In this document: positions 27,187-62,643 of the stretch, in pieces
Position numbering within the stretch: position 1 is the first letter of the stretch
How the letters are laid out: the number at the start of each line of letters is the position of its first letter
Source of the DNA: Gigantopelta aegis
Taxonomy: Eukaryota
Direction: 5' to 3'
Length of the DNA: 64,000 nucleotides
Assembly (NCBI RefSeq): GCF_016097555.1
Contig: NC_054708.1
Span: 62,332,537-62,396,536 of the forward strand
Notes under the pieces: model-generated
Told to the model about the DNA's origin: nothing
What the model saw: the letters and a program-made list of their open reading frames with translations, nothing else
The model's database searches: none
Program-made: the position numbers and the translations under genes

Positions 27187-27409
27187 CACACCCCCACCTC
27201 AAAAAGGATATTTCCTCTACTTTAGGATTAGGGAAATATACTACATTTAAACAAAACAAAATGTGCGTTAACCGACGCATCCGGGCATTTATAACACAAG
27301 TAATAAGGTGACTACCAGTAATCACACTGAGTCTCTGAGTCCCTAGTATACAATAAAATATATAAAAACAAAAACAGAAATCAAGAACGTCAACACATTA
27401 TCACAACGT

Positions 27410-31183: not shown

Positions 31184-31235
<52 letters not shown>

Positions 31236-31238
<3 letters not shown>

Positions 31239-32840: not shown

Positions 32841-32923
32841 TATATATACTTGTATATATATAATTTGTCCAACCCCCTTTCTGTCCTTGACTGGACAGTG
32901 TCCCCAGGACAGCGTGCTTGAAC

Positions 32924-32990
<67 letters not shown>

Positions 32991-38820: not shown

Positions 38821-38939
38821 CTTCTAGACAGGTTTTGAGAGGGTCACAGAACTGTTCAAACTCCATATCCTCCATCGCAGAGATCACGTCTTGGGCTGAG
38901 ATTGTTTTTCTCTTGCCTTTCATCGCAAAGTTGTTGGAG
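38821..38939 (-). CDS. POLE3: POLE3 internal exon: (C)[39 protein letters not shown](G...)
   Basis: Near-identity to human POLE3 ([39 protein letters not shown]). The acceptor tttcag and donor GTAACA were read on the minus strand, and the phases match the neighbouring exons. Confidence 0.9.
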
Positions 38940-39767
38940 CTGAAACCAACCGACAAATAATCTATTAAGTCAAAGCACAAGATATAATGTAACTGATGGA
39001 TGTTGGTTTTAGAACCCCAAAATAGTAGATCAGAAAATATTTCACAGAGAGAGGGCATCAAAGCTAAAAGGGCACAAGGACGAACTGTAAAGGGTACCCC
39101 AATAAAGTTTGGCATTTCTAAATGAAAACCGTCAACAACTTATATGAAGAAAAGGCACTTGAATTATTGCATGGGAAACAGATTCCCCTTGTTCTTCTTT
39201 TACTTATAGTCAAGTATTCATATCTTTAAAGTTATGGACAGAATGATTTAGATATTGTATTGCTATGCAAGTTTCACAGATAACTAAACAATTCTAAAAC
39301 ATTAAATATCAGCTGCTAATCAACTTTGAAATTAATTATAACTTAATGATCAAAATTTAAAAAACAAAATGTTCCTTTGAAAGGGTGTCTCTTGACATTC
39401 CAGTGTGAGGCAGAAATTTAAAGTTTGTTTTGTTTAACGACACCACTAGAGCACATTGATTATTAATCATCGGCTATTGGATGTAAAACATTTAGTAATT
39501 TTCACATATAGCCATAGAGAGGAAACCCCGTGCATTTTTTCAATAGTAGCAAGGGATCTTTTAAATGCATCAATCCACATCATTTGATATACCAGTCGTG
39601 GTGCACAGGCTGGAAAGAGAATTAACCTAAATGGCCCACCAACGGGGATCAATCTTAAACTGACTGCGGATCGAGCAAGCACTTTACCACTGGGCTACAT
39701 CGAGCCCCAAACAGGCAGAAATAAAAGTCATGATGCACACATAGTTTAAAACCCAAAATTAGCTTAC

Positions 39768-39853
39768 CAGGATGTGGCGTATAAAATGAACACACTTGCT
39801 GCCTTTGATATGGCAAGTCTTGCTTCTTTTGATACATTCACTCCTTCAGGAAT
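39768..39853 (-). CDS. POLE3: POLE3 internal exon: [28 protein letters not shown](C)
   Basis: It matches human ...[29 protein letters not shown]. The acceptor tttacag and donor GTAAGC were read on the minus strand. The N-terminal exon (about 22 aa, MAE...ITRIIKEA) was not located and presumably lies beyond the 42-bp satellite. Confidence 0.85.
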
Positions 39854-39954
39854 CTGTAAATAACAAACATACACAGGGATTCTAGAATGTTTATAAAAAC
39901 CCACTAGTCAAAAATCATACTTTAAGTAATTATACAGTTTTATAATATAGATGT

Positions 39955-42400
39955 GGGGGGTGGACCTAAATAGATAGAGCTTGAAAACCCTTAGATTGCA
40001 GGACCTAAAGAGATAGATAGAGCTTGAAAACCCTTAGATGATAGGACCTAAAGAGAGAGATAGAGCTTGAAAACCCTTAGATGGCAGGACCTAAAGAGAT
40101 AGAGCTTGAAAACCCTTAGATGACAGGACCTAAATAGATAGCCAGAGCTTGAAAACCCTTAGATGATAGGACCTAAAGAGATAGATAGAGCTTGAAAGCC
40201 CTTAGATGACAGGACCTAGAGATAGATAGAGCTTGAAAACTCTTAGATGATAGGACCTAAAGAGATAGATAGAGCTTGAAAACCCTTAGATGATAGGACC
40301 TAAAGAGATAGATAGAGCTTGAAAACCCTTAGATGATAGGACCTAAAGAGAGAGATAGAGCTTGAAAACTCTTAGATGATAGGACCTAAAGAGAGAGATA
40401 GAGCTTGAAAACCCTTAGATGACAGGACCTAAAGAGAGAGATAGAGCTTGAAAACCCATAGATGATAGGACCTAAAGAGAGAGATAGAGCTTGAAAACCC
40501 TTAGATGATAGGACCTAAAGAGATAGATAGAGCTTGAAAACCCGTAGATGACAGGACCTAGAGATAGAGCTTGAAAACCGGTAGATGACAGGACCTAAAG
40601 AGATAGAGCTTGAAAACCCTTAGATGACAGGACCTAGAGATAGATAGAGCTTGAAAACCCTTAGATGGCAGGACCTAAAGAGACAGATAGAGCTTGAAAA
40701 CCATTAGATGACAGGACCTAGAGATAGTTTGAAAACCTGTAGATGACAGGACCTAAAGAGATAGATAGAGCTTGAAAACCCTTAGATGACAGGACCTAGA
40801 GATAGATAGAGCTTGAAAACCCGTAGATGACAGGACCTAAAGAGAGAGACAGAGCTTGAAAACCCGTAGATGACAGGACACAGAGATAGATAGAGCTTGA
40901 AAACCCTTAGATGACAGGACCTAGAGATAGATAGAGCTTGACAACCCGTAGATGACAGGACCTAAAGAGAGATAGAGCTTGAAAACCCTTAGATGACAGG
41001 ACCTAGAGATAGATAGAGCTTGAAAACCCTTAGATGGCAGGACCTAGAGATAGAGCTTGAAAACCCTTAGATGACAGGACCTAAAGAGATAGATAGAGCT
41101 TAAAACCCTTAGATGACAGGACCTAGAGATAGATAGAGCTTGAAAACCCTTAGATGACAGGACCTAAAGAGAGAGATAGAGCTTGAAAACCCGTAGATGA
41201 CAGGACCTAAAGAGAGAGACAGAGCTTGAAAACCCGTAGATGACAGGACCTAAAGAGATAGATAGAGCTTGAAAACCCGTAGATGACAGGACCTAAAGAG
41301 ATAGAGCTTGAAAACCCTTAGATGATAGGACCTAAAGAGATAGAGCTTGAAAACCCTTAGATGACAGGACCTAGAGATAGATAGAGCTTGAAAACCCTTA
41401 GATGGCAGGACCTAAAGAGATAGATAGAGCTTGAAAACCATTAGATGACAGGACCTAGAGATAGTTTGAAAACCTGTAGATGACAGGACCTAAAGAGATA
41501 GATAAGAGCTTGAAAACCCTTAGATGACAGGACCTAGAGATAGATAGAGCTTGGAAACCCGTAGATGACAGGACCTAAAGAGAGAGACAGAGCTTGAAAA
41601 CCCGTAGATGACAGGACACAGAGATATATAGAGCTTGAAAACCCTTAGATGACAGGACCTAGAGACAGATAGAGCTTGAAAACCCGTAGATGACAGGACC
41701 TAAAGAGATAGAGCTTGAAAACCCTTAGATGACAGGACCTAGAGATAGATAGAGCTTGAAAACCCTTAGATGACAGGACCTAGAGATAGATAGAGCTTGA
41801 AAACCCTTAGATGACAGGACCTAGAGATAGATAGAGCTTGAAAACTGTAGATGACAGGACCTAGAGATAGATAGAGCTTGAAAACCCTTAGATGACAGGA
41901 CCTAAAGAGAGAGATAGAGCTTGAAAACCCGTAGATGACAGGACCTAGAGACAGAGATAGAGCTTGAAAACCCTTAGATGACAGGACCTAGAGAGAGATA
42001 GAGCTTGAAAACCCTTAGATGACAGGACCTAAAGAGAGAGATAGAGCTTGAAAACCCTTAGATGACAGGACCTAGAGAGAGATAGAGCTTGAAAACCCGT
42101 AGATGACCTAAAGAGAGAGATAGAGCTTGAAAACCCGTAGATGACAGGACCTAAAGAGAGAGATAGAGCTTGAAAACCCGTAGATGACAGGACCTAAAGA
42201 GAGAGATAGAGCTTGAAAACCCGTAGATGACAGGACCTAAAGAGAGAGATAGAGCTTGAAAACCCGTAGATGACAGGACCTAAAGACAGAGATAGAGCTT
42301 GAAAACCCGTAGATGACAGGACCTAAAGAGATAGAGCTTGAAAACCCGTAGATGACAGGACCTAAAGACAGAGATAGAGCTTGAAAAAAAAAACCTTAGT
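39955..42400. repeat. Roughly 42-bp tandem satellite of about 55 copies (GAGCTTGAAAACCCTTAGATGACAGGACCTAAAGAGATAGATA), inside the presumed POLE3 5' intron
   Basis: Direct reading. Variants carry GA/GAGA indels. Confidence 0.9.
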
Positions 42401-44284
42401 TGTGAGATGTGCAGGATATTCAATTTATTATTAATTAGAAACAGTCCACTTTTTTAAGGTAATAGATCACAACGTCTGATAAGGATAACTCATTTATACT
42501 GTTCATACAGTTATGACAAAAAGAGAAAAGGGATTGAATTAAATAGTGGCTTCTGTAGCCTACACAAATGAACTCTTTTATGGAAATCAGCGAAGTCGGT
42601 AAAATTGTCTCGATTAGTTCATAACTGTTAGCCTACAAAGCTTACGTAAGGTCCCGAAAATGGCAATCATGTAATTTTATACTTTCTTTTAAAAAAAAAA
42701 AAAATTGATTGAAAAGAAATGATAATAGGTATGTACGAATAAGCCTAGGTCTTTTTTTTTTACATCTATTATTTTTCTTTTTTATCTTTAAAAAAAAAAA
42801 TCAAATAAATATTTATATTTCAGCCAGAGGTTAATGAATGTGCATATGCTATTTATATATGTATATATGTACACACTATAGTAACAGTAATCAATGGTAA
42901 TAGCTGACTATTTAATTTTTGTTTCGTTTGTTAGAAAGTAACAAGACCATGTGACTGGAACATGATTTGATGCGCAGTAGTCTGTGGCATACTGACCAAT
43001 CAGAGCTATCGGGGTCAGATTATTTTTACTCTTGGAATTCTGCATGCACACGCTGGTCTACTTGACAACTTATTAAGTATTGATGATGGTGTCTAAAATT
43101 ATGGGGACGGGGTGGTGTGTATTATCTTTATTATGGCATCCCACATTTGGAATAAAATCCTTTGCAATGACAGATTTTTTTCAGAGTTTGTGTATTTTGT
43201 TATTAACAACATTGGGGCTGTTCTAGATCAATGACGTAACGCCATCAGAGCTGTTCGTAACTTGTAGCGGTAGCTTAAATGATGTGTTGCAAAATGTTGA
43301 GGGAGGGAGATTGGTTGCGCAATTGTTGAATTAAAAATGCCACGTGAATGTCAATGTCCCAACTAACACTATTAATTGAAGTAATTGTAGGCCCACGTTT
43401 CACGAGTAAATTTTTTTTTTTAATGTTTTAATAATATGAGTCAGTAGAGCACACCTGATATTATTGGGTCGTAATTCATAAACCACCTCCTCGGAACCAG
43501 TGGGTTTTTTCCCATCCCAACTATTCTAATCATGTTCGTTGTACATAATAATCAAATTCAATACAAGTTGATTCCTATATATGTTTAGCTGCACGTCCAT
43601 CAAACCATCTAACACTGAAAAGGTATATATATATAATTGTGTGCATCAAATTATCTGAATAGTACATATTGTAATTAAAAAATCAAATGGTCTGCATCAG
43701 TGTATACATGTCATAATTATATTTCTATAGTACTACTCCTGAAACTTTTTAATATACTATAACTTCATTCCTGAAAGGGAAAAGAAGTCAGACTACACTA
43801 ATGAACCAAACAACATAACATTAGAAAAAAATATTATTGGTTCATTTTTGCAACATATGTCTCTACATTTACATATACCAATTACTAAATTAATAAATGC
43901 TCTATTTTCACTCGCCTTGGTATTTTGATGAGTGCGATTTTTCACTCACCTAAGTGTTTTGAGGTGTGCAATTTTTCACTCAGCTTTGTTTTTCAAAAGG
44001 CAAAGACTGACCATGGAGGTATGGCTACAGATGGGCGGTACTGAAATTTGAAGCCCTGACATACAGTATCTGTTTGGAGTATGACAATTAGAGAGTATGT
44101 GACCACTTGGTGCAAGCATTATTATATAACCACAGGGCTCTAGATTGCAACAATGCTGAAACATTAAAATGTGTGCCCAAAACAAGTAATCACACATTAA
44201 GTACAAACATGCTAACCCTAAAACATTTCACCTCAAAATCAGTGGAATGCTAAGCTATAATTAGATTACAAATAACTTGATATT

Positions 44285-44690
44285 ATGTACCGGCCTCGGT
44301 GGTGTTGTGGTTAGGCCATCGGTCTACAGGCTGGTAGGTACTGGGTTTGGATCCCAGCCGAGGCATGAGATTTTTAATCCAGATACCGACTCCAAACCCC
44401 GAGTGAATGCTCCGCAAGGCTCAATGGGTAGGTGTAAACCACTTGTACTAAACCAGTGATCCATAACTAGTTCAACAAAGGCCATGGTTTGTGCTATCCT
44501 GCCTGTGGGAAGCACAAATAAAAGATCCCTTGCTGCTAATTGGAAAGAGTAGCCCATGTAGTGGCGACAGCAGGTTTCCTCTCAAAATCTGTGTGGTCCT
44601 TAACCATATGTCTGACGCCATATAACCGTAAATAAAATGTGTTGAGTGCATCATTAAATAAAACATTTCTTTTTTTGATATTATGTATTT
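44285..44690 (+). mobile_element. Full-length family-A tRNA-derived SINE with a 10-bp TSD GATATTATGT
   Basis: The head is ACCGGCCTCGGTGGTGTTGTGGTTAGGCCATCGG...GGGTTTGGATCCCAGCC and the tail is ...AAATAAAACATTTCTTTTTTT. The TSD was read on both flanks. Confidence 0.9.
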
Positions 44691-46477
44691 TTAAATATGT
44701 ACAACTCTTTATCAGCTAATATTAAGATTACTGCACTAAAAAGACCTTTGTGTGCTCAGAAGACAAAAAGCCTGTTGTACCCAAATTAGAGTGATCTAAA
44801 GGCCCGTAAAAAGAGTGTGCAATGCCAAACACTGAAACAGGTAACTGTGATTTTAAAATCAACAATATTGAATTTTTTATAATGGGGATTTAAAAATACA
44901 ATCAAATTCACTAAACTGCATAAATCCTAATAGCTATGCAATGAAAATATATGCAAATAACTGGTCTACTTGATCAACCATTGTAGCCCTATATATCTCT
45001 AGGTTATAAACATCTAATTTTGGGCAACATATTTTTCATTCATATATTAAATTTAGAACTTTCAGTGATCCATTTACAATTACATGTGTCAATGTCATGG
45101 ACATAACGGCACAAGCAAAAAGGAAATGGGTTATGCAAATTTTCTATTATCGGAGGTCTGAAAATGTCCATGGCAAAAAAAAACTGTTGTTGAACAAAGA
45201 AAACACCCTGAATATAGTTCAATGCAAAAAAGTGCTGTGAAGAATTAAAAACTCCACGGCATTGTTGATTGCCATAAGCAATTGCAGGGGCTAACATATA
45301 TACTAACAAAAAACCTGCCACTGAACAAAAAAAACAAAAAATAATAATATCGTCCACGGCAAAGGCAGGGGCTGACATGTTATGTACTAACAGCATCTTT
45401 GATGATTCTGGCAACAACAGCATTTGGCAAATTGAGATCCTCAGGTCTCTCTGCCATCGTATATTCTCAAGATTGCTGGAAACACACGCCTACAATGAAA
45501 AATAAAAAGATACATGTATCAGCAAAATTAGTTGCGGATTCAGAATATTTTTACTCATACTGCCAACATTCACAACAACTAGCCATTTCCTTTCTCTGAT
45601 GCAAAATTGTTGGGGGGGTTTTCACCAAAATTATGGTCAGCCAGAAAAAGACAGATCACCCATCGGACCAGTACTCTCATTTTGTAATTTGTCTGTCAGA
45701 ATGACGTTTACTCTCATTTGGCAAGCAAGCGAATACTTTCTGCACCCCTATGCACCATAACCACACCACAGCCGTTGTCATTGTGCACTGGCTGGAATGA
45801 GAAATACCCCAACTGGCCTATCGACGTGGATTGATCCAAGACCGACCACACATCAAGTGAGTGCTTTACCACTGGGTTAAATCCTGCCCCAAATGTTTAA
45901 CAACATCCCAGCATGAATAATACATGTGCTTTTGGGTGTCATACACAGGTAAACATATGAATGAAGCGATAATCAAATCAATAATAAAAATGTCAAGTTG
46001 TTGTAATTAAAGGTCTTAATAAAACACAATGTATAAAAGAGCTGTGCAAAATACAAGTTAAAGCATGCGTTGAAGTGACAGACCCTAGTTTCTAAAAACA
46101 CGTTTGTCTGAGAAGTAATGGTTATTGAGATAAGCTCTAGCCTCTAGTTATTTTTAGACACTATTTCCATGTTAAAATTATCATGTTTAAAAATCACAGA
46201 ATCAGATTTTAGCTTCTATAAGACTATATGAAATAACTTTATTCAAATGTATGTTGCAGGTTTGTTAAATATTTGACTACAACTTGGCAAAACATATTTT
46301 TGTCAGGTTTTTAACTTTTAACTTTACTTATTATAAAAATAACTTTCTGTTCTAATACGAACTCATGTCGTCCGTCGCATGTCCGTTCGAACTTGAGTAA
46401 GAACCCTACTAGGGCATGAGTTCCTTATTTTCCCCATAACGATTTTAAAAAAAATATTTGTTAGAATTAGTTTAAGG

Positions 46478-50613: not shown

Positions 50614-53317
50614 TACTAACCCTATACCTCATGGAACCTACCTCATTTGGCTTTTTTGAATGCGACAATTGGAAGTTTTATCATAGTATCATAGTATTTC
50701 TTACAACAAATATATATGTAATTTTTATCCAGTGGCAAAATATTGTCATCAATAAAGTCCTTAACCTACAGCAATTCGTATCACAGTGATGGTAATTCAA
50801 GTAATTTCTGTCGGTGCCATCATTAAAATTTAGCCCTGTTTTTAACATAATAGGCCTAGTAATAGGATATAATTGTTAAGGTCGATGATAGTCACTTTTC
50901 GCACCCTTGTTTTGGCATTATACGCAATAAATATAGCATATCTTAGCGTAATTTCACTTGAAATCCATATTTGGTAAAAGGTACAATTTTTTAATCACAA
51001 GATTTTCTTCAAACACATTCAGGTGCATTGCTAATGTTCAGACAAAAAATTTTGCATTGGAATTTTTTCAGCATTCTTAAAACGGAAACGTCATGTAGCC
51101 AGTTTATGGTTATTGTAAGGAGATGCAAAGTGATGTCATTGGAATATTGACATCATTCAATTCAAAATTAGCTATAGTATTACAATGCTTTGCTTAAAAA
51201 ATAAAAACTGGTCTACTGACCTTGACCCCTGTCAAATTTCTATGGCAAGCAAACAATGCTGTTTATAGGTTGGTATTTTTTTATTTTCATAATTCTGGAC
51301 AAAATATTTATTTTAAGTTTTAAAAGATGAAAGAAATACCTTTTGTCAAATATGTCATTTCAAAAAAATATCGTTTGCAGTGCTCTACAAAGCAAGTTAA
51401 AATTTACTCTTCCCAGGCCAGTAAAGTGTAATATTTTAGTCGCCAGCCACTTATATTTAGTTGCCAGCTAATATATACTTGTAATTAAATCGATTCATCT
51501 GCCATTTTATGACACATTACTAATGCCGTAATTGTTATTAGAACCACATTCGAATGAACTCGTGAAGGGGTAATTCCTAGTTGTTAAATAGTAATTACAA
51601 ATTAATGTTTGTGTCTGGTTCCACTAAATCAGTGAACGACTGTCAACTAGCATCATCAAATTCCATACCCAATAAGTTTATTAAACGAAGTTAAGCGAAT
51701 TACTATTTTAATGGCACTGCTAAGATATGCATTTAAATTGCAGTACTCATTAAAAGTTAAATAAAAGCATTGTGATAATATCTACTAGGCGTCAACGTGT
51801 TACTAGTAGTTAACAATCGGCTACCTTACTTTTGGTTTAAATAATATTTATTTTCGTCACATACTGCCTTGTAAATCCATAAATACTGTTTTGTAAATAG
51901 TTGTGTCTTTAAAGCTGTCTAAAGTCCAGTCATGAAATTAGAAACATGTTTTCATCCTCCACTGGTGAACATGACTTTCGACGTGATTAAAACAACATTC
52001 ACGACTGGAGACGTTATCGTGGAGGGAAAGTTAAGGGAGATAACATCATAACCAAGTATTACCTCCCTTAACGTCACCATGTTTACTATTTATTACAGGA
52101 AAATCGTTATTCATAGTCCCAGTGGCGTAGGAAGGTGCCAAAGCGTGGGGGGCACACTTTTATATTTACACACTTTTACACTATTATAAAGCAAATAAAA
52201 AGCAAAGTATCTAAAAAGTGGGGGGGGGGGGGGGGGGGGGGCAAATGCCCCCTTGCCCCACCGCTTCCTACGCCAGTGAGTCCGATTAACTTGTCTCAAA
52301 CTTTTATTTTGCAAACAAACTACTGATAGAAAACACGTTTTATGGAAGATAAATTGCTACTGGTCCACTGTGTTTTCCGATGTCCAGTTTTGTTTACTGA
52401 TTAAAGTAATATTATTGGACAGTCACCAACTGGCGAATGTGATTTTATTGTTTAAACGCCATGGCGAGTATTTTACTCGCTTTGTAGAGCACTGGTTTGA
52501 TATATTTTATTTATTGTGTACGAAGCCAAAAAAAGTGTCCGAAAAGTGACCGTCGTTGACCTTAAGAGAAGAGTTGCACTGGATGGCAACCACATATAGG
52601 CATCTGATAATATAAAATAGGCGTAAATTATTTATGGGTTACCAGGGCATCAAAGTCGAGGTGATAAACATACTCAAAATACATTAACAAATTTACTCAC
52701 TATAATCATTCCCAAATTAAGTACAAACATGCTAACCTCAAACTATTTTACCTCAAAACCACTGAACTGTTAAGTTTAATTAGATTAAAATAACTTGAAA
52801 TACATTTCTGAATATTGACAACTCTTCTATATTAACGGTTAATGACACTACTGAACTAAAACAACCTTCCTGCACTGAGAAAAGACGAGTCCCTGTTGTG
52901 CCCAAATTAGTGAGATCTTGTAACTCATTTTGTTTTTGTGTGGCCATAATGACCATGTAAATGATGTTCTAGAGAAATTTAATGTCCAAATATTGGGTTA
53001 CACAAAATCAAATTTTGCGCAAGTGAGGTGTCATTGAAACTGTTGTCACAGTTTTCAGAGTCATGTGGCAAGTCATCCTTACACGCGCGCATGCACACAT
53101 ACACACATACACACATACACATACATATATATATATATATGCATGTATTTTAAATTTTTGTTGAGAGCATTTATACACGTCATATATGTTGACAAACATT
53201 ATTAGCAGCCCGTGAAATGTGATGAAAGATAGGTCAGGTCCATTGGTTACGTCAAGGATTGATTAGATGGTTTCATAACAGTTATGTTTTTATTTTATCA
53301 TCCAGATTAGTTTAATG

Positions 53318-53389
53318 ATGAGTTCTTCAGAGGAGGTATCGTGGATTTCCTGGTTCTGTGGTCTCCGAGGAAATGAATTCTTCTGCGAA
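53318..53389 (+). CDS. CSNK2B: Casein kinase II beta subunit, coding exon 1: [24 protein letters not shown]. An in-frame ATG also lies at 53315.
   Basis: Identical to the human CK2beta N-terminus. The donor GTAAGT is at 53390. The upstream tccag at 53301-53305 suggests a 5'-UTR exon further upstream. Confidence 0.9.
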
Positions 53390-54063
53390 GTAAGTACCTG
53401 TATTATACATGTATAACATTTAATGAAATATCTTAAAATATCTGTGAAATAAAAGTGTTATTAGTCACTCAGTGATGATAACACATTTTAGAGTGAAAAT
53501 TTCACTATTTCACTCTAAAATGTGTTACTGTCACTGTAGACAATGTCATCTTCACTGTAAGAAAGCCGGAACTATTTTGCTGCTGGCATTTTAAAAATGA
53601 TGGTAAATTGCCAAAAGTTATATAATAAATAGAAAATTTCATGTTTTTTGTCAAATATGATTTATATCTCATGTCGTGAAGTTTGCAATCATATTACATT
53701 AGTCGCGCAAGTGCGACTCGTGAGATATGACTGAAAACTTCACTCGATGACTAAAAACATGAAATATCCTCTATGTATTCATTGATTTTTCACTACAAAT
53801 AGCAAGGGAATAATAAAAAAAAACCACCAAAATCTTTTTACATTGATTTATACAAATAAAAAGCTTTCAGATTTTTAGATTAAAAACATATTGTACAAAA
53901 TATATCTGTAATATAGTTTGAACCATAACATTTTTATGTCAAGATGTTTTGCATGAGTATAGTTAGAACTACACAACATTTATTTAATTTTTTTATAGGG
54001 CTGACTGTGACAGTAACCATGTTGACTATTCTTGTGTACAGGTATTGTAAATGTGTGTTTCAG

Positions 54064-54166
54064 GTGGATGAGGACTATATACAAGACAAGTTCAACTTGA
54101 CAGGTCTTAATGAGCAGGTTCCACATTACAGACAAGCCTTGGATATGATTTTAGACTTGGAACCAG
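54064..54166 (+). CDS. CSNK2B: CK2beta exon 2: [34 protein letters not shown](+1 nt)
   Basis: Identical to human residues 25-58. The acceptor tttcag and donor GTACGT were read directly. The exon ends in phase 1. Confidence 0.9.
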
Positions 54167-54884
54167 GTACGTGTAACAAGATAAACACTGAAACGTCATC
54201 TGGATTCCTGCTTTCATCTTTTCAAATGAATTATCAATTATTTTTACATGTATATTTTTGCACAGTAAAAACTGCCTAAACTGGATCCTGAGGATAACAG
54301 GCCAGTTTTTTTGCCCCACATTTTACCTATTTATGTGCAGTAGACAATCTTTTATTAACAAGTAAGATAGCAATAATTGGTCTGCATTAACAAATTACAT
54401 CAGTTTTTTAATTGGCCAAACCCACTAAAAATAAAAATCTATTTTGTCATTTAGTTGGAAAAGTAAATCAAAAATCTATTTGATCATGATGAAACATCCA
54501 CTCATTTGATAAATTATGATGGTATTAAGCAAACATGCTGGGCTGCATTTACACATGTATAGGGTGGGACATAACCCAGTGGTAAAGTGCTTGGCTGATG
54601 TGTGGTCAGTCTGGGATCGATCACCATCATTGGGCTATTTCTTGTTCCAGTCAGTGCCCCACGACTGGTATTTCAAAGGCTGTGGTATGTGCTGTCCTGA
54701 ATGGGATGGTGCATATAAAAGATCCCTTGCTACTAATGGAAAAATGTAGCGTGTTTTGTCTCTAAGACTATATGTTAAAATTATCCATGATTAATAAATA
54801 GCCAGTGATTAATAAGTCAGTGTGCTCTAGTGGTATCATTAAGCAAAACAAACTTTTAACTTTTTACACATGTATAACTATGCA

Positions 54885-55283
54885 GGGAACATTTTGTTGT
54901 TCAGTATCGTGTCACGATTTGCTTCGTAAGTTTCGTAGATAGTTACACACTTTTAAAACATTTAAACAGTAGTTGAGCTAATCAAGTTTAGTTGAGAAGA
55001 AAACAAAATGTTCCCTGTTATGTAGGCTACATTTACAGAACTTTCTTAAACACCTGTGTAAACCTTACAGGGAACATTTTGTTTTTAAAATTTTGACTAG
55101 CGACATTTCTGGTCAATTGAAAATTGATTAGCGACATTTCTGGTCAATTGAAAATTGATTAGCGACATTTCTGGTCAATTGAAAATTGATCAGCGACTAC
55201 TGTTCAGTGTTTTAAAATTGTGTAGCGATCTCTGAAATTTGTGTTGTGAGTTGTTGCGATACTGAACAAAATGTTCCCTGACC
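54885..55283. mobile_element. Two adjacent MITE-like units (54885-55020 and 55063-55283) sharing the TIR CAGGGAACATTTTGTT / AACAAAATGTTCCCTG. The second contains a 35-bp x3 tandem repeat (TTGACTAGCGACATTTCTGGTCAATTGAAAATTGA).
   Basis: The TIR pairs were read directly at 54887/55003 and 55063/55268. Confidence 0.55.
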
Positions 55284-55423
55284 TAAGAAAAACGGTTCTG
55301 TGCTATCCTATGTACATTTACAGTGCTTAAAACCCATGTGAAAAACTTAAAGAAGGACAAGTTGTCGTAAATTGGGTCCACTGTGTTTTATAATGTGCTG
55401 GCTTTCTGTTTGTGCCCCATCAG

Positions 55424-55536
55424 AGGAAGAGCTAGAGGAGAACCCAGGGTCTGATTTGGTCGAGCAGGCGGCCGAGATGCTGTACGGCCTGATACACGCT
55501 AGGTTCATACTAACCAATGCAGGCGTCAGCAAGATG
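55424..55536 (+). CDS. CSNK2B: CK2beta alternative exon 3a (113 nt): (E)[38 protein letters not shown]. It is a divergent paralogue of exon 3b.
   Basis: It has a strong acceptor (ctttctgtttgtgccccatcag), a strong donor (ATG|GTAAGA), the same phase-in/phase-out as 3b, and 113 nt (not a multiple of 3). Confidence 0.6.
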
Positions 55537-55883
55537 GTAAGAGGTTTCTCGTCCACCTTGGTAGCCGAGGGCCTGGCTTGTCTCCTCTGGGTTACTAGGT
55601 GGCATGCTTGTGTGTCTAGTACATTTACCATTGTTAGCCAGATTTTGTGCCAGTAATAATGAAGCCAGTTGTTGCATACGTTGTAAAAACACAAGTTACA
55701 GGATTCTGTGCACATGTATGTCCACTGTATAATATATGTACAGGCTACAAATTTAGCACAATTCTGTGCATCCGCAAATCTCAGATGTTCGGTCGGAAGC
55801 ACAAGATTATGAGATGGAATCCCAAAATATCTGTATTAAATTATATTTTATGGTAATGGCGGAATCCTTTAAAAAAAGAAAAT

Positions 55884-55914
<31 letters not shown>

Positions 55915-57437
55915 ACATATACTTTTAACTTTTCTTGTTGTTTTTAATTATGTACAGGTACAGGTATATTTGTAAATAATAAATTCAGCTTTTAGCTACC
56001 TAAAACTACTTGTACCTGTACTGTTGTTTGTTCTGTTACTTTTCACTCATTTCCTGGAACTTGTGTTTTAAATATTCATTTTTGGTATTATCATAAATTA
56101 TGATAATATAGTTTCCTTGTTACTGGCATATATACATACACATGTATTGCTGCATGTGTGTGGCTGTCTTGGCCAAAAGGGCATCAATTCTGTTTTAACT
56201 TTGAGAAATGTAATATTAAATACATGAACTTTTGCTAGAGCTTTTTTTTTTAAATGTACAAACCATGTGTATTCAAATGTTCTGATATTTTAAAAATTGC
56301 TCATATGGATTTAAAAAAAAACTTAAAACAATTGCACATATATTTTTGGCAATAAGTCCTTTACCAAGTATAGCAGTGTTTTTGCATTTGGCATGCATAT
56401 TTTCTTCATATACACATAGGACTATATGACAAGATACAACCAGTAGCGCCACCTGTAACCTATAAGCCTAATTATCTCCCTTGGCACAAGGTCTAGAAAT
56501 CTGCATTCAACGTTTGCTGCCAGGTTTCCTCTGAGGATATTTCAGTTGTAAGGAATGGTGGGAAGTGTGCACAGGCTTAAAAATGCTTTTTAATTCTACA
56601 ACAATTCGGTTTTGTCAAATTAATTGCTTTTATTTTCTTTTTTAAGTGGCATATTTATTTTGTTGATTTCCATATACGTTTAGTCATAGAACCATGTAAT
56701 GTTGTTTTGATCACAGTGTTTACTGTTAATATTTCTATTTAAAATAGTTTTGTCACAGCAAATTACCCGTAATTTGAGAAAGTAAATATTAAACTTTTTA
56801 TTACAAAAAGTATAATTAAGAAAAAATGTTTTTATTATTTTTCTATTCTTATTTTTTTTGCTTATGTACACATTTGGTGATCCACAGAGGAAATCGTTTG
56901 TTTGTTTTTACTTACCCAATTCTCATCAACATTTACTCTTTTCTTTTATTAAACAAAGATAAAAACCCTGACCAAAAGTAAAAACACATTGATGTTATTT
57001 CATTTGGCAGCATTTAGTTGCCCAAAACACGTAGCCTTCTGTGAATACCATCAAACTGTTAAATTGGCTATTACATGCAGTTACACCATTACGTTTTTTA
57101 AGTTATCAAAGAGAATAAACTATGTTTCTTCTCTTAATTCTCCAGACCAAGTGCTTGATGCTTGAAACACACCGATTAAGCACACTGCTGAGGTTTTGTT
57201 AAGCAAATTTCTTTTTCCTTTTGTTTTTGCATGAAATAATCCACTGTGTATAAATATACCTGTACATACAAAAGAAATATATGTTAACAGTGCAATATTT
57301 TGTGTGCAAAACGGAATACGAAGGAACATGGTGTTTTGAAGCACAGACTGATGACTGTCACTGTCAATGGTCAGCCGCATGGTGAGTGTTGATGAGAATG
57401 TTCTGTAGCTGTTAACACATGTTCTGTTTTTGTTCAG

Positions 57438-57553
57438 ATGATGAGTTGGAGGACAATCCTAATCAGAGTGACCTCATAGAACAGGCGGCCGAGATGTTGT
57501 ATGGCTTGATACACGCGCGATACATTATGACTAACCGAGGCATAGCCCAGATG
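57438..57553 (+). CDS. CSNK2B: CK2beta exon 3b (116 nt): (D)[38 protein letters not shown]. This is the canonical version.
   Basis: Near-identical to human residues 59-97 ([39 protein letters not shown]). The acceptor is tgttcag and the donor is GTAAGC. Confidence 0.9.
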
Positions 57554-59294
57554 GTAAGCCAAACTTCGTAACGGTCTGCCTCCATAGCAGAACTCGCTTG
57601 TATGCCTCGGTGGTCTTGGCTATTTACCTGTATGTTTACTAAATGAGAAAAAAACCCCCCACTAGGGGGTATATTCATGATCAAAATAAGATTGCATAAA
57701 ATAAAGAGAAGTGTGGGGGGGGGGGGGGGGCAGTCTCTAATGAAAGGGAGCACAGTCTCTATCGAGAGGGGGCAGTCTCTAGTAGAGACTACAAACCAGA
57801 TTTTTATATTTATGTACAAAAAATGTACATTTTCATTCTCAAGTGAGAGGGTGGAGGTGCACAGGTCCTCTCTACTCCCTTGGTTCCTTTGGGCTGTGAA
57901 ATGTCAGGCTGTTAACAATTACCAGACTTGTAGTGTCTACGGCTTCGTACAGGGAGTCCAGACAAACTCTGAGACTTGAGTTGCTTTTTTTCTTATCATA
58001 CAGGTAAACTGTCCATTTACAAAAAATTTCTATTTGATATATTATTTTTTGGATTAGTTTTAATTGAGTCCAAATGATTTTAATGAATCTAAATGGTTAT
58101 TTTATCAATCATTTCGCTGCCTTCTCTTCATTTGGCATTTGGATTACCACCAACATGGCATTGTTTTTTTTCCTGTAGTCTTTCCAGTGATCATATCCTT
58201 CCACTGAAGATGTTTGGTAACATAATATAGATGCATAATGGTAGTTTTATTTCACTGTGTTTACTGTTATACTCAATGGACTTTTATTTAAACAACAATT
58301 TGGCTCGTCCAAAATGTGTTTGACTATTTATTTAATCTAGCAGCACCATCTAAACAACTATACATTGTATTTTATCATGTAATACTGGAAATGATTTTGT
58401 TTTATACTTTTTCAAAGATCGAAAATATTTGCTTGGAAAATTAATCAAAAGTTTTAATAGCCATATCACTACCTTACTTTTAATGAGTCATTATTAAAAT
58501 GAGCATTAAGATAATTTAACTGGTTGTAGGGTGAGATCTGGTTTAAATTGAGTCCACTGCAGTAACCGTTTATAATGTTTGCTTTATTCAAAGTTTGATG
58601 TTCAACTTTATCTATTTATTATAGTACTATACATGTTTGTTATTAAGTTAGTTAGTATACTATATGTACTTATACATAAAATGTAATGTAATGTATAAAA
58701 TTTAATAATTGTAAACAGTTTATAAAATTTTAAAGTCCATTCAAAACCCAAACATAGATTTTAGACCTCACCTAACTTTACACTTATTGCATCTTTAGAG
58801 TTCATGTTGTTTTAAGGTGGTGTCTCATTTCTAGTTTTATTTGGTTATCTTTATTGTATGTATGTTTCAGCTGTGATCATCATTGTCAAATAATGCTGAC
58901 TGTATTAATATCAATTTCCAAAAGACAGTTGCAAATAATTATACACAATATTGAAACATTGGCAACTGCTTTGCCAGTTACAGGTATCAGTAAATCAGAA
59001 GTGAAAAATAAACTGATCAAAATTAGTTGAATAATGTCCAGAATATGCGGAGCATTTTTTAAATAATTATATGGCACTGCTAACAGTATTTAAGAAATTG
59101 ATCAAAATTTATTTCTATGATTAAAAAAAATCTAAAAATAGATACAGTGTCATAACCAGTTTCCCATGGTCACCACTGACTGCAGCACCCCCCCCCCCCC
59201 CCCCCCACCGCTAGAAGCTACATGTAATGGATTTTTTATGCCACTGACACTAACTTTACCATTCTTATTTATTTGGACATTCACATGTAGTGAT

Positions 59295-60798
59295 ATATAC
59301 TCTTCAAAAGAAGAAACGCAAAACCACATTGTCGTAACATTTGGAGAATTGATTTAATTATTGAATGGTGAGTCCGATAATTACCAAATGTTGCAGGATT
59401 GTTCACAATTCACTCTAGTCCATTGTGAGTAAGTGATAGGACACACCACCAAGGTCAAGGTCATCTGGAGTCAATACCGGGTGTGGCCTCCGCGTGTGTT
59501 GACAACTGCCTGGCACCGCCTGCCCATTGAAGCAACCAGAGTACGGATGACGTCCCTGGGGATGGTGGCCCACTCGGTCTGCAAGGCTGCTGCCAGCTCG
59601 GGCAGGGTCTGGGGCTGTGGTTGTCGCTGTCGGAGGCGTCGGTCCAACTCGTCCCATAGATTCTCAATTGGGTTCAAATCCGGTGATATCGATGGCCAAG
59701 GAAGGACATTAATGTTGTTGTTCTGTAGGAAAGCCGTTGTGAGACGTGCTGTGTGAGGCCTGGCGTTGTCATGTTGGAACACTGCGTTGGCGTTGGCCAT
59801 AACTGGAACGATGTGTGGCCGGAGGATCTGGTCAATGTAGCCCTGTGCATTCAGTTTGCCCTGCACGTGGACCAGGTCAGTTCTGCCAGTGTGTGAGATG
59901 GCTGCCCACACCATGACACTACCCCCGCCGAATCTGTCCACTTCCTGCACGCAGTTTGCCGCATAACGTTCACCACGACGCCTATACACGCGACATCTTC
60001 CATCATGACGTCGGAGCAGAAATCGGGACTCGTCACTGAACCACACCTGTCTCCATCGCAGTTGAGGCCATTGTCGATGAATCTGGCACCACTGCAGTCG
60101 GAGTCGACGGTGTTGTGGTGTTAAGATGACACCTCGAACTGGACGTCTGGCACGAATTCCTACCTCACGTAGGCGGTTCCGTACGGTCTGGTCGGATATC
60201 CTGCGCAAACCTGGTATTGCTGCGGCTGTGGAGGTGGCAGTAGTCAATCGTTCCCGAAGGTGGCGTACCCGGATGTAGCGGTCCTGCCCGGGGGTAGTGA
60301 CCCGTGGTCGACCGGATCTAGGGAGGTCACGTGTTGATCCATGTTGCTGGTAACGGTCCCACAGTCTGGAGATGGTGCTTGGGGACACATGGAATGCCCT
60401 GGCAACGGCCGTTCTGGATTCGCCTGCGTCTAGTCGGCCGATGGCATTGTTTCTCTGCGGTTCACTGAGACGTGGCATGTCCTGAATTGTCAACTGTCGG
60501 CCAGATACAGAGGCCAGGCAAGCGAACACCCTGCACTTTTATACTGTCGGTGTTCATGTTTCACGTGCAGACAACACACGTGCAGTGGTGACATGGTTTG
60601 CACGTGGCTGCGTTTTTGCGAATATTCACATTTTGGAACTTTATTGTACAGTAGCTGCGTTTTATCGAATGTAACCGTGGGAATGTGTTTGGGACATGCA
60701 ATGACCTTATATTCACAAAGCATGAACCGGTAGGAAACATAAAATCGGAGTTATAACCCATTTGTACCCTTTTGCGTTTCTTTTTTTGAAGAGTATAT
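59295..60798 (-). mobile_element. Complete Tc1-like DNA transposon (about 1.5 kb) in a CK2beta intron, with roughly 30-bp TIRs (ATATACTCTTCAAAAGAAGAAACGCAAAA / TTTTGCGTTTCTTTTTTTGAAGAGTATAT) and TA flanks
   Basis: The TIRs were read at both ends. It encloses an intact 352-aa transposase. It is a different family from the 31.2 kb element, since the TIRs are unrelated. Confidence 0.9.
59471..60529 (-). CDS. Tc1-family DD34E transposase, 352 aa, uninterrupted. The likely true start is M at 60478 (MPRLSEPQRNNAIGRL...).
   Basis: Motifs read in the translation: ...RSGRPRVTT..., WFSDESRF, FQHDNARPH and SPDLNPIENLWDEL. Confidence 0.9.
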   Translation of the reverse strand: MFACLASVSGRQLTIQDMPRLSEPQRNNAIGRLDAGESRTAVARAFHVSPSTISRLWDRYQQHGSTRDLPRSGRPRVTTPGQDRYIRVRHLRERLTTATSTAAAIPGLRRISDQTVRNRLREVGIRARRPVRGVILTPQHRRLRLQWCQIHRQWPQLRWRQVWFSDESRFLLRRHDGRCRVYRRRGERYAANCVQEVDRFGGGSVMVWAAISHTGRTDLVHVQGKLNAQGYIDQILRPHIVPVMANANAVFQHDNARPHTARLTTAFLQNNNINVLPWPSISPDLNPIENLWDELDRRLRQRQPQPQTLPELAAALQTEWATIPRDVIRTLVASMGRRCQAVVNTRGGHTRY

Positions 60799-61227
60799 GA
60801 TTATATATTTAACAGCAAATATTAAACACAGAACATATCTGTGAAAACATTTATTGTTATTCAGACTTGCAAAATTTTTAGGTTTCAACTTTATAATGAA
60901 TATAATTAATTTACTTTTGATTTTTGATTAGATTGTTTCATATGTATATGCATATCTGGTACTTAGATTTGTAGATATATATACTGTTTGATTTTGAATG
61001 GTTTTTCTGCAAGTATTAATTATATTATTGTAGTTTGAATGTTGGGTGCGAGCATGGAATTGCAGTAGTATGTGTACATGTACACAATACACATTGACAA
61101 GTACAGGCAGTATAGTTTTTTTCTATTTACTTAACTACATATATAGGTCTGCTGGATTAGCTTTGATGTATTGTGGTTTTAATGGAAAGTGCAGTAGTAT
61201 TACTTGTAATATGTTTGTTATTTTTAG

Positions 61228-61303
61228 ATTGAGAAGTGGCAGCAAGGTGATTTTGGTTATTGTCCACGAGTATACTGTGAAAATCAGCCAATGCTACCAA
61301 TAG
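61228..61303 (+). CDS. CSNK2B: CK2beta exon 4: [25 protein letters not shown](+1 nt)
   Basis: It matches human [26 protein letters not shown]. The acceptor is tttttag and the donor is GTAAGA. Confidence 0.9.
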
Positions 61304-61961
61304 GTAAGAGATCCAATGTGAATACACATCATACTGTTCATGTGTTGTTATTTTGTGATAACAAGTCGGTTCATCAGTACCATATAATTTCCTAATGGCG
61401 ATGCTTGTTATGTACACATAATGTTTGTCACATGGAAAATTTATTTTTATTGACTTGAGAAAATATTTACATCGGAAATCTTCAGTTGTTATGTTATGCA
61501 TGTAAGTGGAAAATTCTGCAGGTATTAGAAGACAAAAGTTGATATATTTTAAATCAAAGCATGTGTTTGGGAAGGGGGGGTGAAGTCTTGCCACAAAATC
61601 TGGGGGTGAAGTCTTGCCACAAAATCTGATTACATACAGAAACTAATAATGCAGTATAAATGTTTATTTATTACAAAAGTTAAGTACTGGTTTAAACTTG
61701 CTGTAGTCAGACTCAGAATTATGCAGGTTAACGTTTTATCTCTGACAAAAGCATTTCAAAATTGCTATAGGCTCTTACACATTCTTAAGTTTCGAGCCCT
61801 GCATTGTCAGCTCTGACATTATTGATGGGTTTCACTGTATATTCTGAAATCTTATATATGGAAATTAGCATCTTTTTGATTCTTCACTTTAATTTTCTCA
61901 TTAATTTTTTTTTTGTTAACTATGTTTGGGCCATGCTATGAGATTTGGCATTCTGTTTCAG

Positions 61962-62151
61962 GTCTGTCGGATGTTCCCGGCGAAGCGATGGTCAAACTGT
62001 ACTGTCCCAAGTGTCAAGACGTGTACACTCCCAAGTCATCCCGACACCACCACACTGATGGAGCCTACTTCGGAACAGGCTTTCCTCACATGCTCTTTAT
62101 GGTGCATCCAGAATATCGTCCAAAACGGCCAGCTAATCAGTTTGTACCAAG
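61962..62151 (+). CDS. CSNK2B: CK2beta exon 5: (G)[62 protein letters not shown](+2 nt)
   Basis: At least 95% identical to the human sequence, including the zinc-finger cysteines CPKC. The acceptor is tttcag and the donor is GTAACT. Confidence 0.9.
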
Positions 62152-62534
62152 GTAACTATTACAATTTTGACTGCATGTACCCGAGTATTCAAGAGGGTTT
62201 AGAAGTTCACAGATACTAACAAGAATCAATAGGCGTATACTTTGATACACAAATATACTCAAATTGGTATTGAAGCTTCACAGAAGATGCTTATTCACAA
62301 ATTTGATTTTCATGTGGTAAATTAAATGTGATTTCATCCTTGCTTGGGTGATTGTTAGCGTTCATACTTGTAAAATTATTCAGTCATTCAATTGCTGTAT
62401 TTATTTCAGCATTTGCTTGTTTAGCTTTAAGTAAATTTTTTAAAATTGTTTACCATCACAGTGTTTACTTTGTTAGCTTGACCCGTAAAACCTAGATCAA
62501 CTATGAATTCTTAAATTCTGTTGTTTTTTTTCAG

Positions 62535-62643
62535 ACTGTATGGCTTCAAAATCCACCCCCTTGCTTACCAGTTACAGTATCAGGCCGCAGCCAACTTCAA
62601 AATGCCGATGCGGGGAGCTAGTCACACAAATAGTAAAAGATGA
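62535..62643 (+). CDS. CSNK2B: CK2beta terminal coding exon: (R)[35 protein letters not shown]
   Basis: It matches human [23 protein letters not shown]... The acceptor is ttttttttcag and the stop TGA is at 62641-62643. An AATAAA lies at about 63260. Confidence 0.9.

What the first reader, a model, noticed from the sequence alone, without database searches (positions are those of the whole stretch)
55424..57553. Tandemly duplicated exon 3 in the CK2beta gene: a candidate mutually exclusive exon pair
Two homologous copies of the exon for CK2beta residues about 59-97 (the end of the acidic loop plus helix [16 protein letters not shown]) lie 2 kb apart in the same intron interval. Exon 3b (57438-57553, 116 nt) is essentially identical to the human sequence. 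Exon 3a (55424-55536, 113 nt) is divergent: [38 protein letters not shown] versus [39 protein letters not shown], one residue shorter, with R to A and IAQ to VSK changes. Both have strong polypyrimidine/AG acceptors and GTAAG donors. Both enter in phase 1 and exit in phase 0. Neither length is a multiple of 3, so including both would shift the frame, which is the classic signature of mutually exclusive splicing. The affected segment borders the regulatory acidic loop of CK2beta, so the two isoforms could differ in polyamine sensitivity or autoinhibition. I am not aware of this having been described for CK2beta.
Basis: partly seen in the sequence, partly recalled or inferred. Interest (0 to 1): 0.75.

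Follow-up and report, generated by a model that had tools for sequence, protein, structure and literature searches.

The report
Conserved alternative exon pair in mollusc CK2beta
A mollusc gene for the regulatory subunit of protein kinase CK2 carries two tandem versions of its third coding exon, only one of which can be used per transcript; the second version is conserved in snails, octopuses and scallops, so it very probably encodes a real alternative form of an otherwise almost invariant protein.

Summary
Window 53318-62643 (+) holds a six-coding-exon CK2beta gene. Two homologous copies of exon 3 lie between exons 2 and 4: 3a (55424-55536, 113 nt) and 3b (57438-57553, 116 nt). Both have AG/GT splice sites, enter in phase 1 and leave in phase 0. 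Using both or neither gives an early stop codon.

Exon 3a is not a decaying relic. An intact 3a-type exon sits upstream of 3b, always with length 2 mod 3 and AG/GT sites, in three caenogastropods, two octopods and three scallops. It is missing from Lottia, Sinanodonta, an annelid and a hemichordate. dN/dS for 3a is 0.02-0.18 in snails and scallops. RefSeq already lists isoforms that swap 3b cleanly for a 3a-type exon: Octopus sinensis X2 and Biomphalaria glabrata X3.

All 3a copies lose Arg92 and change residues 94-96 and the acidic loop, but keep Tyr80, Arg86 and Met97.

I conclude this is an old, selectively maintained, mutually exclusive exon pair, a known kind of event. I found no paper describing it for CK2beta. 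Transcripts from this species, tissue pattern and biochemical effect remain untested.

The parts
53318..53389 (+). CK2beta first coding exon ([24 protein letters not shown]). ATG at 53318, with a further in-frame ATG at 53315. An acceptor-like AG at 53304-53305 suggests a non-coding exon further upstream.
54064..54166 (+). CK2beta exon 2, 103 nt, ends in phase 1 (…LDLEP + G)
55424..55536 (+). Exon 3a, the divergent alternative copy. It is 113 nt with AG/GTAAGA sites and encodes (E)[37 protein letters not shown].
   Evidence: orthologues
55537..57437 (+). Intron between 3a and 3b, 1901 nt. It has microsatellites and no homology to the other introns, and no convincing docking/selector complementarity was found.
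57438..57553 (+). Exon 3b, the canonical copy. It is 116 nt with AG/GTAAGC sites and encodes (D)[38 protein letters not shown]. This peptide is identical in every mollusc 3b examined except Lottia.
61228..61303 (+). CK2beta exon 4 ([26 protein letters not shown]), enters in phase 0
61962..62151 (+). CK2beta exon 5 (zinc-finger CPKC, KSSRHHH, body of the domain)
62535..62643 (+). CK2beta last coding exon ([36 protein letters not shown], stop TGA 62641-62643)

Best explanation
Exons 3a and 3b are an old tandem exon duplication in the mollusc CK2beta gene, and they are spliced in a mutually exclusive way. Each mRNA carries exon 2, then either 3a or 3b, then exon 4. The result is two full-length CK2beta proteins of 220 and 221 aa that differ only in residues 59-97. 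That segment covers most of the acidic loop, helix alphaD and the start of alphaE.

Shown here: both single-inclusion products are open and are full-length Pfam CK_II_beta matches. Double inclusion or double skipping shifts the frame and creates an early stop codon.

Inferred: mis-spliced products are removed by nonsense-mediated decay, so the reading frame enforces exclusivity at the level of productive mRNA. Also inferred: 3b is the default exon. Its peptide is invariant, its acceptors are stronger, and it is the only form found in assembled transcripts. 3a would then be a regulated minor or tissue-specific choice.

All 3a copies keep the buried or conserved residues Tyr80, Arg86 and Met97. 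All of them lose Arg92, change residues 94-96 and remodel the acidic loop; scallops lengthen it. My best guess is that the 3a isoform is a structurally normal beta subunit with altered surface properties. These could affect either the autoinhibitory and polybasic-effector function of the acidic loop or partner docking on the N-terminal domain. This last step is inference only.
For: Pfam CK_II_beta scores are 259.9 bits for the 3a isoform and 262.5 bits for the 3b isoform.

Orthologous 3a exons, with AG/GT sites and length 2 mod 3, lie upstream of 3b in these loci:
- Nucella lapillus L001 11182-11294.
- Two further caenogastropods, L010 4475-4587 and L011 5205-5317.
- Octopus sinensis L002 11458-11570.
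- Argonauta hians L008 6961-7073.
- Three scallops: L004 6716-6852, L005 5697-5836, L006 3011-3141.

Purifying selection on 3a: dN/dS is 0.018-0.043 among caenogastropods and 0.04-0.18 among scallops. For window-Nucella, pN is 0.075 against pS 0.77. Flanking introns are not alignable there (about 0.6 identity in a forced global alignment, versus 0.78 for the exon).

Clean exon-substitution isoforms exist in RefSeq: Octopus sinensis X2 versus X1 and Biomphalaria glabrata X3. The X2-specific peptide maps exactly onto the genomic 3a exon.

Within-species 3a-3b synonymous divergence is saturated (pS 0.75-0.96), so the copies are old in every lineage. Gastropod and cephalopod 3a share the same 113-nt length, one codon shorter than 3b. 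An NJ tree groups all 3a copies together. A conserved head-to-head histone-fold neighbour shows the window locus is the orthologue. The roles of the acidic loop, Arg86, Tyr80 and Met97 are taken from PMC9608649.
Against: There is no transcript evidence from this species.

The exact predicted 3a isoforms of the window, Nucella, three scallops, Octopus (short N-terminus) and Argonauta are absent from a 15-billion-protein collection that includes RNA-seq assemblies. Canonical isoforms are present there as assembled transcripts. Scallop RefSeq lists only the canonical protein. So 3a usage is probably low or restricted.

Between Octopus and Argonauta, 3a shows 7 nonsynonymous and 0 synonymous differences. 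That fits relaxed constraint in that lineage.

Lottia and Sinanodonta lack 3a, so it is dispensable in some molluscs.

Bootstrap support for a single origin of all 3a copies is only 0.53. No conserved RNA structure or other active exclusion mechanism was found.
Confidence: 0.8

Rival explanations
1. Exon 3a is mainly a regulatory 'poison' cassette. It would be included together with 3b to shift the frame and send CK2beta mRNA to nonsense-mediated decay, tuning the level of the subunit rather than making a second protein.
For: Joint inclusion gives a stop codon 17 codons into exon 3b. No assembled 3a-only transcript or protein was found outside two RefSeq models. Octopod 3a evolves with no sign of amino-acid constraint.
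Against: A poison cassette needs no conserved reading frame. Yet 3a keeps an open frame, the right phase and a CK2beta-like peptide in nine loci. dN/dS is 0.02-0.18 in snails and scallops with synonymous sites saturated over longer distances. The RefSeq models in Octopus and Biomphalaria use 3a instead of 3b, not with it.
Confidence: 0.08
2. Exon 3a is a non-functional leftover of an exon duplication (a pseudo-exon) that is not spliced into mature mRNA in this species.
For: No transcript data for this species. 3a is absent from some molluscs (Lottia, Sinanodonta). Canonical 3b is the only form in assembled transcripts.
Against: Intact copies persist in three mollusc classes that separated in the Cambrian by established palaeontology. 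Splice sites and frame are preserved, introns are unalignable and amino-acid change is low. A neutral 113-nt segment would not survive this.
Confidence: 0.04
3. The 3a exons of gastropods, cephalopods and scallops arose by independent duplications of exon 3 and look alike by convergence. On this view they are several younger events rather than one ancient mollusc-wide alternative exon.
For: Scallop 3a differs greatly from the others: 131-140 nt, 14-18 of 27 core residues shared, TS[PQ]G versus TNAG. Bootstrap support for monophyly of all 3a copies is 0.53, and only 0.22 for gastropod plus cephalopod. The exon has a patchy distribution. Recurrent duplication of the same exon is documented for other genes (PMC9741552).
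Against: The alternative copy is always the upstream one. All copies lose Arg92 and alter residues 95-96. Gastropod and cephalopod copies share the exact 113-nt length. Within-species 3a-3b synonymous divergence is saturated in all three classes, so none is recent.
Confidence: 0.25

Closest known systems
Tandem duplicated exon substitution events (mutually exclusive homologous exons), as catalogued for human and fly genes (PMC8373072, PMC9741552; review PMC9013439)
   Same: Two adjacent homologous exons of nearly equal length and the same phase. One of them is strongly conserved and both are old. The isoforms are identical apart from a homologous segment that preserves the fold.
   Different: CSNK2B/CK2beta is not mentioned in the text of PMC9741552, and vertebrate, hemichordate and annelid loci examined have one exon 3. 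The event is confined to molluscs in my sample. Known catalogues are enriched in ion channels and muscle proteins, not kinase regulatory subunits.
Mollusc examples of duplicated-exon alternative splicing: oyster alternative oxidase (PMC5589949) and COQ-2 in helminths, annelids and molluscs (PMC7434440)
   Same: Lophotrochozoan genes where a tandemly duplicated exon is used alternatively to give two enzyme forms.
   Different: For those genes, transcripts and a physiological role (stress or hypoxia, rhodoquinone synthesis) have been shown experimentally. For CK2beta only genomic conservation and two automated isoform models exist.
Drosophila alternative CK2 beta subunits (CK2beta', SSL/CK2beta-tes, Stellate) and C-terminal splice isoforms of DmCK2beta (review PMC5374408)
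   Same: Diversification of the otherwise single, highly conserved regulatory subunit of CK2 into variant forms, some of them tissue-restricted.
   Different: In flies the diversity comes from whole-gene duplicates and from alternative C-terminal exons. Here it comes from an internal duplicated exon that changes only the acidic loop and helices alphaD-alphaE.
Mutually exclusive exon clusters controlled by competing RNA structures (docking and selector sites; PMC6071210)
   Same: Tandem homologous exons of which one is chosen.
   Different: No complementary intronic elements linking the exons were found in the window. The conserved caenogastropod intron blocks show no evident pairing. Frame incompatibility is the only exclusion device shown.

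Membership tests
Mutually exclusive exon pair from tandem exon duplication | Two neighbouring exons homologous to each other | tested here: met
   Both match CK2beta residues 59-97 (E 3e-15 and 2e-20). They share 75% nt identity over 80 nt and form the only long direct repeat in the interval.
Mutually exclusive exon pair from tandem exon duplication | Same entry and exit phase, canonical splice sites, and each exon alone restores the full reading frame | tested here: met
   Both enter in phase 1 and exit in phase 0 with AG/GT sites. The products are open 220-aa and 221-aa proteins. Both score as full-length PF01214.
Mutually exclusive exon pair from tandem exon duplication | Joint inclusion or joint skipping is non-productive | tested here: met
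   113 and 116 nt are both 2 mod 3. In-silico joining gives premature stops in both cases. The same length class holds in all nine loci.
Mutually exclusive exon pair from tandem exon duplication | Mature transcripts carry one or the other exon, never both | not testable with these tools
   No RNA data for this species. Indirect evidence: RefSeq Octopus sinensis X1/X2 and Biomphalaria glabrata X3 are clean substitutions. A junction scan of JGI metagenome and metatranscriptome contigs found 0 contigs with a 3a-to-exon-4 junction, but only 5 junction-spanning contigs in all, every one of the canonical (3b) type, so it is uninformative.
Mutually exclusive exon pair from tandem exon duplication | Both copies conserved in orthologues under purifying selection | tested here: met
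   3a is intact in 8 other mollusc genomes. dN/dS is 0.02-0.18 in snails and scallops, and the 3b peptide is invariant. Exception: the octopod 3a pair has 7 nonsynonymous and 0 synonymous changes.
CK2 regulatory subunit (Pfam PF01214, CK_II_beta) | Full-length profile match, zinc-finger cysteines (CPRVYC…CPKC) and the C-terminal alpha-binding segment (RLYGFKIH) | tested here: met
   One search gives E 1.6e-77 and 2.6e-78 with profile positions 1-182 covered. The motifs are visible in the translated exons 4-6. The gene is 87-97% identical to human over exons 1, 2, 3b, 4 and 5, and 73% over the last coding exon.
RNA-structure-controlled mutually exclusive exon cluster (docking/selector) | Conserved intronic sequences complementary to a common docking site next to each variant exon | tested here: inconclusive
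   The inverted-repeat scan of 54167-61227 shows only transposon ends, homopolymers and AT-rich matches. Caenogastropod introns hold two conserved blocks with no obvious complementarity. No close relative of the window species was available for covariation analysis.
Poison (NMD-inducing) cassette exon | Inclusion of the exon by itself introduces a premature stop or frameshift | tested here: not met
   Exon 3a in place of 3b keeps the frame open to the normal stop.

The most novel reading that the evidence does not exclude
Molluscs have maintained, probably since before gastropods, bivalves and cephalopods split, a second form of the CK2 regulatory subunit made by exon choice. Its acidic loop and alphaD-alphaE surface are remodelled and Arg92 is always lost, while the structural core is kept. 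If this isoform changes CK2 autoinhibition or oligomerisation, or partner docking, in particular tissues, it would be a natural, evolution-tested switch in a kinase usually regarded as constitutively active and unregulated.
Probability: 0.3. Interest if true: 0.7.

Novelty: new member of a known kind. Interest (0 to 1): 0.5.

Why it matters
CK2beta is one of the most conserved animal proteins. The 3b peptide is identical in eight of the nine mollusc loci examined (Lottia differs at two residues) and differs from human at 2 of 39 residues. How CK2 activity is regulated is a long-standing question. An alternative exon retained in three mollusc classes and confined to the acidic loop and the alphaD-alphaE region marks the positions where variation is tolerated and presumably useful. 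It also provides two natural variants that could be compared biochemically for polyamine or polylysine stimulation, holoenzyme oligomerisation and partner binding.

The finding has a practical side for genome annotation. The Nucella GenBank model fuses part of 3a with 3b, and the RefSeq entries seen for scallops and the GenBank models for Nucella and Argonauta miss the 3a exon.

Against this, tandem exon duplication with mutually exclusive splicing is a well-known mechanism. The event is already captured by RefSeq in two species, and its function is unknown.

Tried and rejected
- Exact look-up of the predicted 3a and 3b isoforms of the window, and of the 3a isoforms of Nucella, three scallops, Octopus and Argonauta, in a 15-billion-protein collection. 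None was present; only the Nucella-type 3b protein was.
- Three homology searches, using a 70-aa segment, the full 3a isoform and a profile of six 3a segments. The segment and profile searches returned only short canonical fragments. Only the full-length search was productive.
- DNA pattern scan of JGI metagenome contigs for a 3a-to-exon-4 splice junction gave 0 hits. A control pattern allowing any residue gave only 5 canonical hits, so the negative result carries no weight.
- Look-ups of the Octopus X2 and Biomphalaria X3 loci by isoform failed because only the longest product of a gene is indexed. The oyster entry was not on record.
- Search for docking/selector RNA pairing found nothing convincing.
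- Rbfox-type GCATG lies downstream of 3a in all four gastropod loci but not in cephalopods or scallops. It is not significant given background rates and the non-independence of the three caenogastropods.
- The AlphaFold2 model of the 3a isoform from a 20-sequence alignment was poor (mean pLDDT 45). I used only its helix boundaries (68-87, 90-101), which agree with published descriptions. I ran no fold search.
- Four literature searches found no report of a CK2beta mutually exclusive exon.
- The species of the window could not be identified. It is not any of the fetched loci, since only exons align at about 76-88%. The 3a peptide is closest to the caenogastropod one.

Full report
**Observation**

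A tblastn of human CK2beta against the window places a complete CK2beta gene on the + strand between 53318 and 62643. Residues 59-97 match twice, at 55423-55548 and 57434-57562. Reading the DNA and joining exons in silico gives this model:
- exon 1, 53318-53389
- exon 2, 54064-54166
- exon 3a, 55424-55536 (113 nt)
- exon 3b, 57438-57553 (116 nt)
- exon 4, 61228-61303
- exon 5, 61962-62151
- exon 6, 62535-62643

All introns are GT-AG. Exon 2 ends in phase 1 and exon 4 begins in phase 0, so either copy of exon 3 alone restores the frame. The products are 220 aa with 3a and 221 aa with 3b. Including both copies gives a stop codon 17 codons into 3b. Skipping both gives a stop at the start of exon 4.

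The two exons are the only long direct repeat in the interval (80 nt, 75% identity), and the homology stops at the exon borders. Both isoforms are full-length matches to Pfam CK_II_beta, at 259.9 and 262.5 bits.

**Is exon 3a a real exon? Comparative evidence**

A full-length search with the 3a isoform returned two informative proteins. The first is a Nucella lapillus GenBank model of 256 aa that contains part of a 3a-like exon fused to 3b. The second is Octopus sinensis RefSeq 'isoform X2', in which the canonical segment is replaced by [38 protein letters not shown]. Cluster members show that X1 and X2 of Octopus differ only in this segment.

I fetched genomic loci and located the exons by tblastn and by eye. 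An intact 3a-type exon lies between exon 2 and 3b in:
- Nucella lapillus (L001 11182-11294);
- two further caenogastropod assemblies (L010 4475-4587, L011 5205-5317);
- Octopus sinensis (L002 11458-11570, which is exactly the X2 exon);
- Argonauta hians (L008 6961-7073);
- three scallops (L004 Mizuhopecten 6716-6852, L005 5697-5836, L006 Pecten maximus 3011-3141).

Every copy has an AG acceptor, a GT donor and a length of 2 mod 3. The lengths are 113 nt in gastropods and cephalopods and 131-140 nt in scallops. A further RefSeq model, Biomphalaria glabrata 'isoform X3' (XP_055897970.1), uses a 3a-type exon, [36 protein letters not shown].

No 3a was found in four other species:
- Lottia gigantea, where intron 2 is only about 136 nt;
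- Sinanodonta woodiana;
- the annelid Dimorphilus, where exons 2-4 are fused;
- the hemichordate Ptychodera.

The window shares a head-to-head histone-fold neighbour gene with Lottia and scallops, so it is the orthologous locus.

**Selection**

Nei-Gojobori counts give these values for 3a:

| Comparison | Result |
|---|---|
| Among the three caenogastropods | dN/dS 0.018-0.043 (dS 0.3-0.6) |
| Among scallops (alignable 28 codons) | dN/dS 0.04-0.18 |
| Window versus Nucella | pN 0.075, pS 0.77 (saturated) |
| Octopus versus Argonauta | 7 nonsynonymous, 0 synonymous differences |

Between window and Nucella, the introns next to the exon are not alignable. The octopod result is compatible with relaxed or positive selection there, although the frame and splice sites are kept and RefSeq models the exon as used.

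Exon 3b is even more constrained. Its peptide is identical in the window, caenogastropods, octopods, scallops and Sinanodonta. Within each species 3a and 3b are saturated at synonymous sites (pS 0.75-0.96), so the duplication is old in every lineage. A decaying pseudo-exon is therefore excluded for snails and scallops.

**One origin or several?**

Four features are shared. The alternative copy is always the upstream one. All copies have lost Arg92, which becomes A, N, V, P or Q. All have changed residues 94-96. Gastropod and cephalopod copies share the same one-codon-shorter length. An NJ tree of the 27-residue core groups all 3a copies, but bootstrap support is only 0.53. A single duplication before the gastropod-bivalve-cephalopod split, with later losses, is the simplest reading. 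It is not established.

**Mechanism**

Shown here: only single-inclusion mRNAs are productive. Inferred from the established rules of nonsense-mediated decay: double-inclusion and double-skipping products would be degraded. Frame incompatibility is the classic passive device for mutual exclusivity.

I looked for an active device. The 1.9-kb intron between the exons rules out steric hindrance. Both exons have ordinary U2-type sites. An inverted-repeat scan found no docking/selector candidates. Caenogastropod introns contain two conserved blocks, one about 80-200 nt downstream of 3a and one in intron 3b-4, with no evident complementarity. A GCATG motif lies 66-168 nt downstream of 3a in the four gastropod loci only, which is not significant.

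3a acceptors generally have poorer pyrimidine tracts than 3b acceptors. Only 3b-type transcripts are found as assembled contigs. Both points fit 3b as the default exon and 3a as a regulated or minor choice.

**What the isoform changes**

According to PMC9608649, the acidic loop spans Asp55-Asp70 and modulates CK2 activity. Neutralising residues 55-57 hyperactivates the enzyme, and the loop contacts the basic substrate-binding region of CK2alpha of neighbouring tetramers. The N-terminus of helix alphaD belongs to the acidic groove. Arg86 belongs to a conserved exposed cluster, and Tyr80 and Met97 are buried.

Exon 3 encodes residues 59-97. All 3a copies keep Tyr80, Arg86 and Met97, so the fold should be preserved. 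They differ as follows:
- The acidic loop is conservative but one residue shorter in caenogastropods, three residues shorter in Biomphalaria, Asp-rich in octopods, and lengthened by 5-8 mostly acidic residues in scallops.
- Glu77 becomes Asp in octopods and Gly in scallops.
- The alphaD-alphaE turn changes from [10 protein letters not shown] to F/Y-I-L-T-N-x-G-x-x-x.

My inference is a structurally normal beta subunit with altered surface or regulatory properties. I could not test this. An AlphaFold2 model was of low confidence (pLDDT 45) and was used only for helix boundaries.

**Comparison with what is known**

This is a tandem duplicated exon substitution event, a well-described class (PMC8373072, PMC9741552, PMC9013439) with mollusc precedents in other genes (PMC5589949, PMC7434440). 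CSNK2B does not occur in the text of PMC9741552. Four full-text searches found no report of such an exon pair in CK2beta. In Drosophila, beta-subunit diversity comes from gene duplicates and C-terminal splice variants (PMC5374408). The mollusc solution is an exon-level counterpart.

The event is, however, already present in RefSeq automated annotation for two species. I therefore rate it a new member of a known kind: undescribed in the searched literature, of moderate interest, and mostly of interest to CK2 and alternative-splicing specialists.

**Limits**

- No RNA data exist for this species, which I could not identify.
- Predicted 3a isoforms of seven species are absent from a very large protein collection that includes RNA-seq assemblies, so expression is probably low or restricted.
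- The taxon sample is small.
- dN/dS rests on 28-38 codons per comparison.

Noticed in passing
window 59295-60798: A Tc1/mariner-type DNA transposon sits inside the CK2beta intron between exon 3b and exon 4. It has 29-nt terminal inverted repeats (59295-59323 / 60770-60798, 97% complementary). An uninterrupted 352-aa transposase ORF on the minus strand (59471-60529) matches Pfam DDE_3 and HTH_Tnp_Tc3_2, so the copy may be recent or active.
   Followed up: partly
window 57711-57730 and 59189-59208: A run of about 16 G and a run of about 16 C lie 1.46 kb apart in the same intron and form a perfect inverted pair. A short 22-nt repeat lies next to the G run (57726-57781). Origin unknown.
   Followed up: no
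window 38801-45457 (minus strand): A histone-fold gene ([24 protein letters not shown]…, CBFD_NFYB_HMF type) lies head-to-head with CK2beta. The same neighbour is found in Lottia and three scallops, so the microsynteny is conserved across mollusc classes.
   Followed up: partly
window 26376-33231: A retroelement region on the minus strand has RT/RNase H (27410-28255), an integrase zinc-binding domain (28426-29325) and a gag-like ORF (29300-30457). A second Tc1-like transposase ORF lies at 31449-32510. Identical short peptide matches at 26376-26462 and 33145-33231 suggest flanking repeats.
   Followed up: partly
window 527-1234: A satellite-like tandem repeat gives long repetitive ORFs on both strands (…SCKLISDITS…).
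   Followed up: no
window 54883-55280: Intron 2 holds a 31-nt tandem repeat (55093-55197, 3.4 copies). The 16-mer CAGGGAACATTTTGTT occurs twice (54883, 55068) and its reverse complement AACAAAATGTTCCCTG twice (55002, 55265), which looks MITE-like.
   Followed up: no
L001 (Nucella lapillus) 13555-14884, 17412-17529, 18875-19310; also L010 13871-14307 and L011 13421-13717: Caenogastropod CK2beta introns contain tandem arrays built from copies of exon ends plus the adjacent splice site. In Nucella: 22-nt x20 and 90-nt x7 from the 3' end of exon 3b, 58-nt x2 from the end of exon 4, and 71-81-nt repeats from the end of exon 5. L010 has 80-nt-spaced copies of the start of exon 6. The origin and any effect on splicing are unexplained.
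   Followed up: partly
L002 11458-11570 versus L008 6961-7073: Octopus and Argonauta 3a exons differ by 7 nonsynonymous and 0 synonymous substitutions, while their 3b exons differ by 3 synonymous and 0 nonsynonymous. This is unlike the strong constraint on 3a in snails and scallops.
   Followed up: partly
L001 (Nucella lapillus), GenBank KAL8561188.1: The deposited 256-aa protein model is a mis-prediction that joins the first part of exon 3a to exon 3b through a spurious splice. The RefSeq entries seen for scallops and the GenBank models for Nucella and Argonauta do not include the 3a exon.
   Followed up: yes
L001 11371-11450 / L010 4701-4812 / L011 5420-5509; L001 16433-16474 / L010 11165-11233 / L011 11949-12022: Two intronic blocks are conserved among three caenogastropods. 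One lies 80-200 nt downstream of 3a and contains GAGCATGGC. The other, in intron 3b-4, has the core GTGTCGTGCGTGGTGATTGGTC. They are possible splicing regulatory elements. No counterpart was recognisable in the window.
   Followed up: partly
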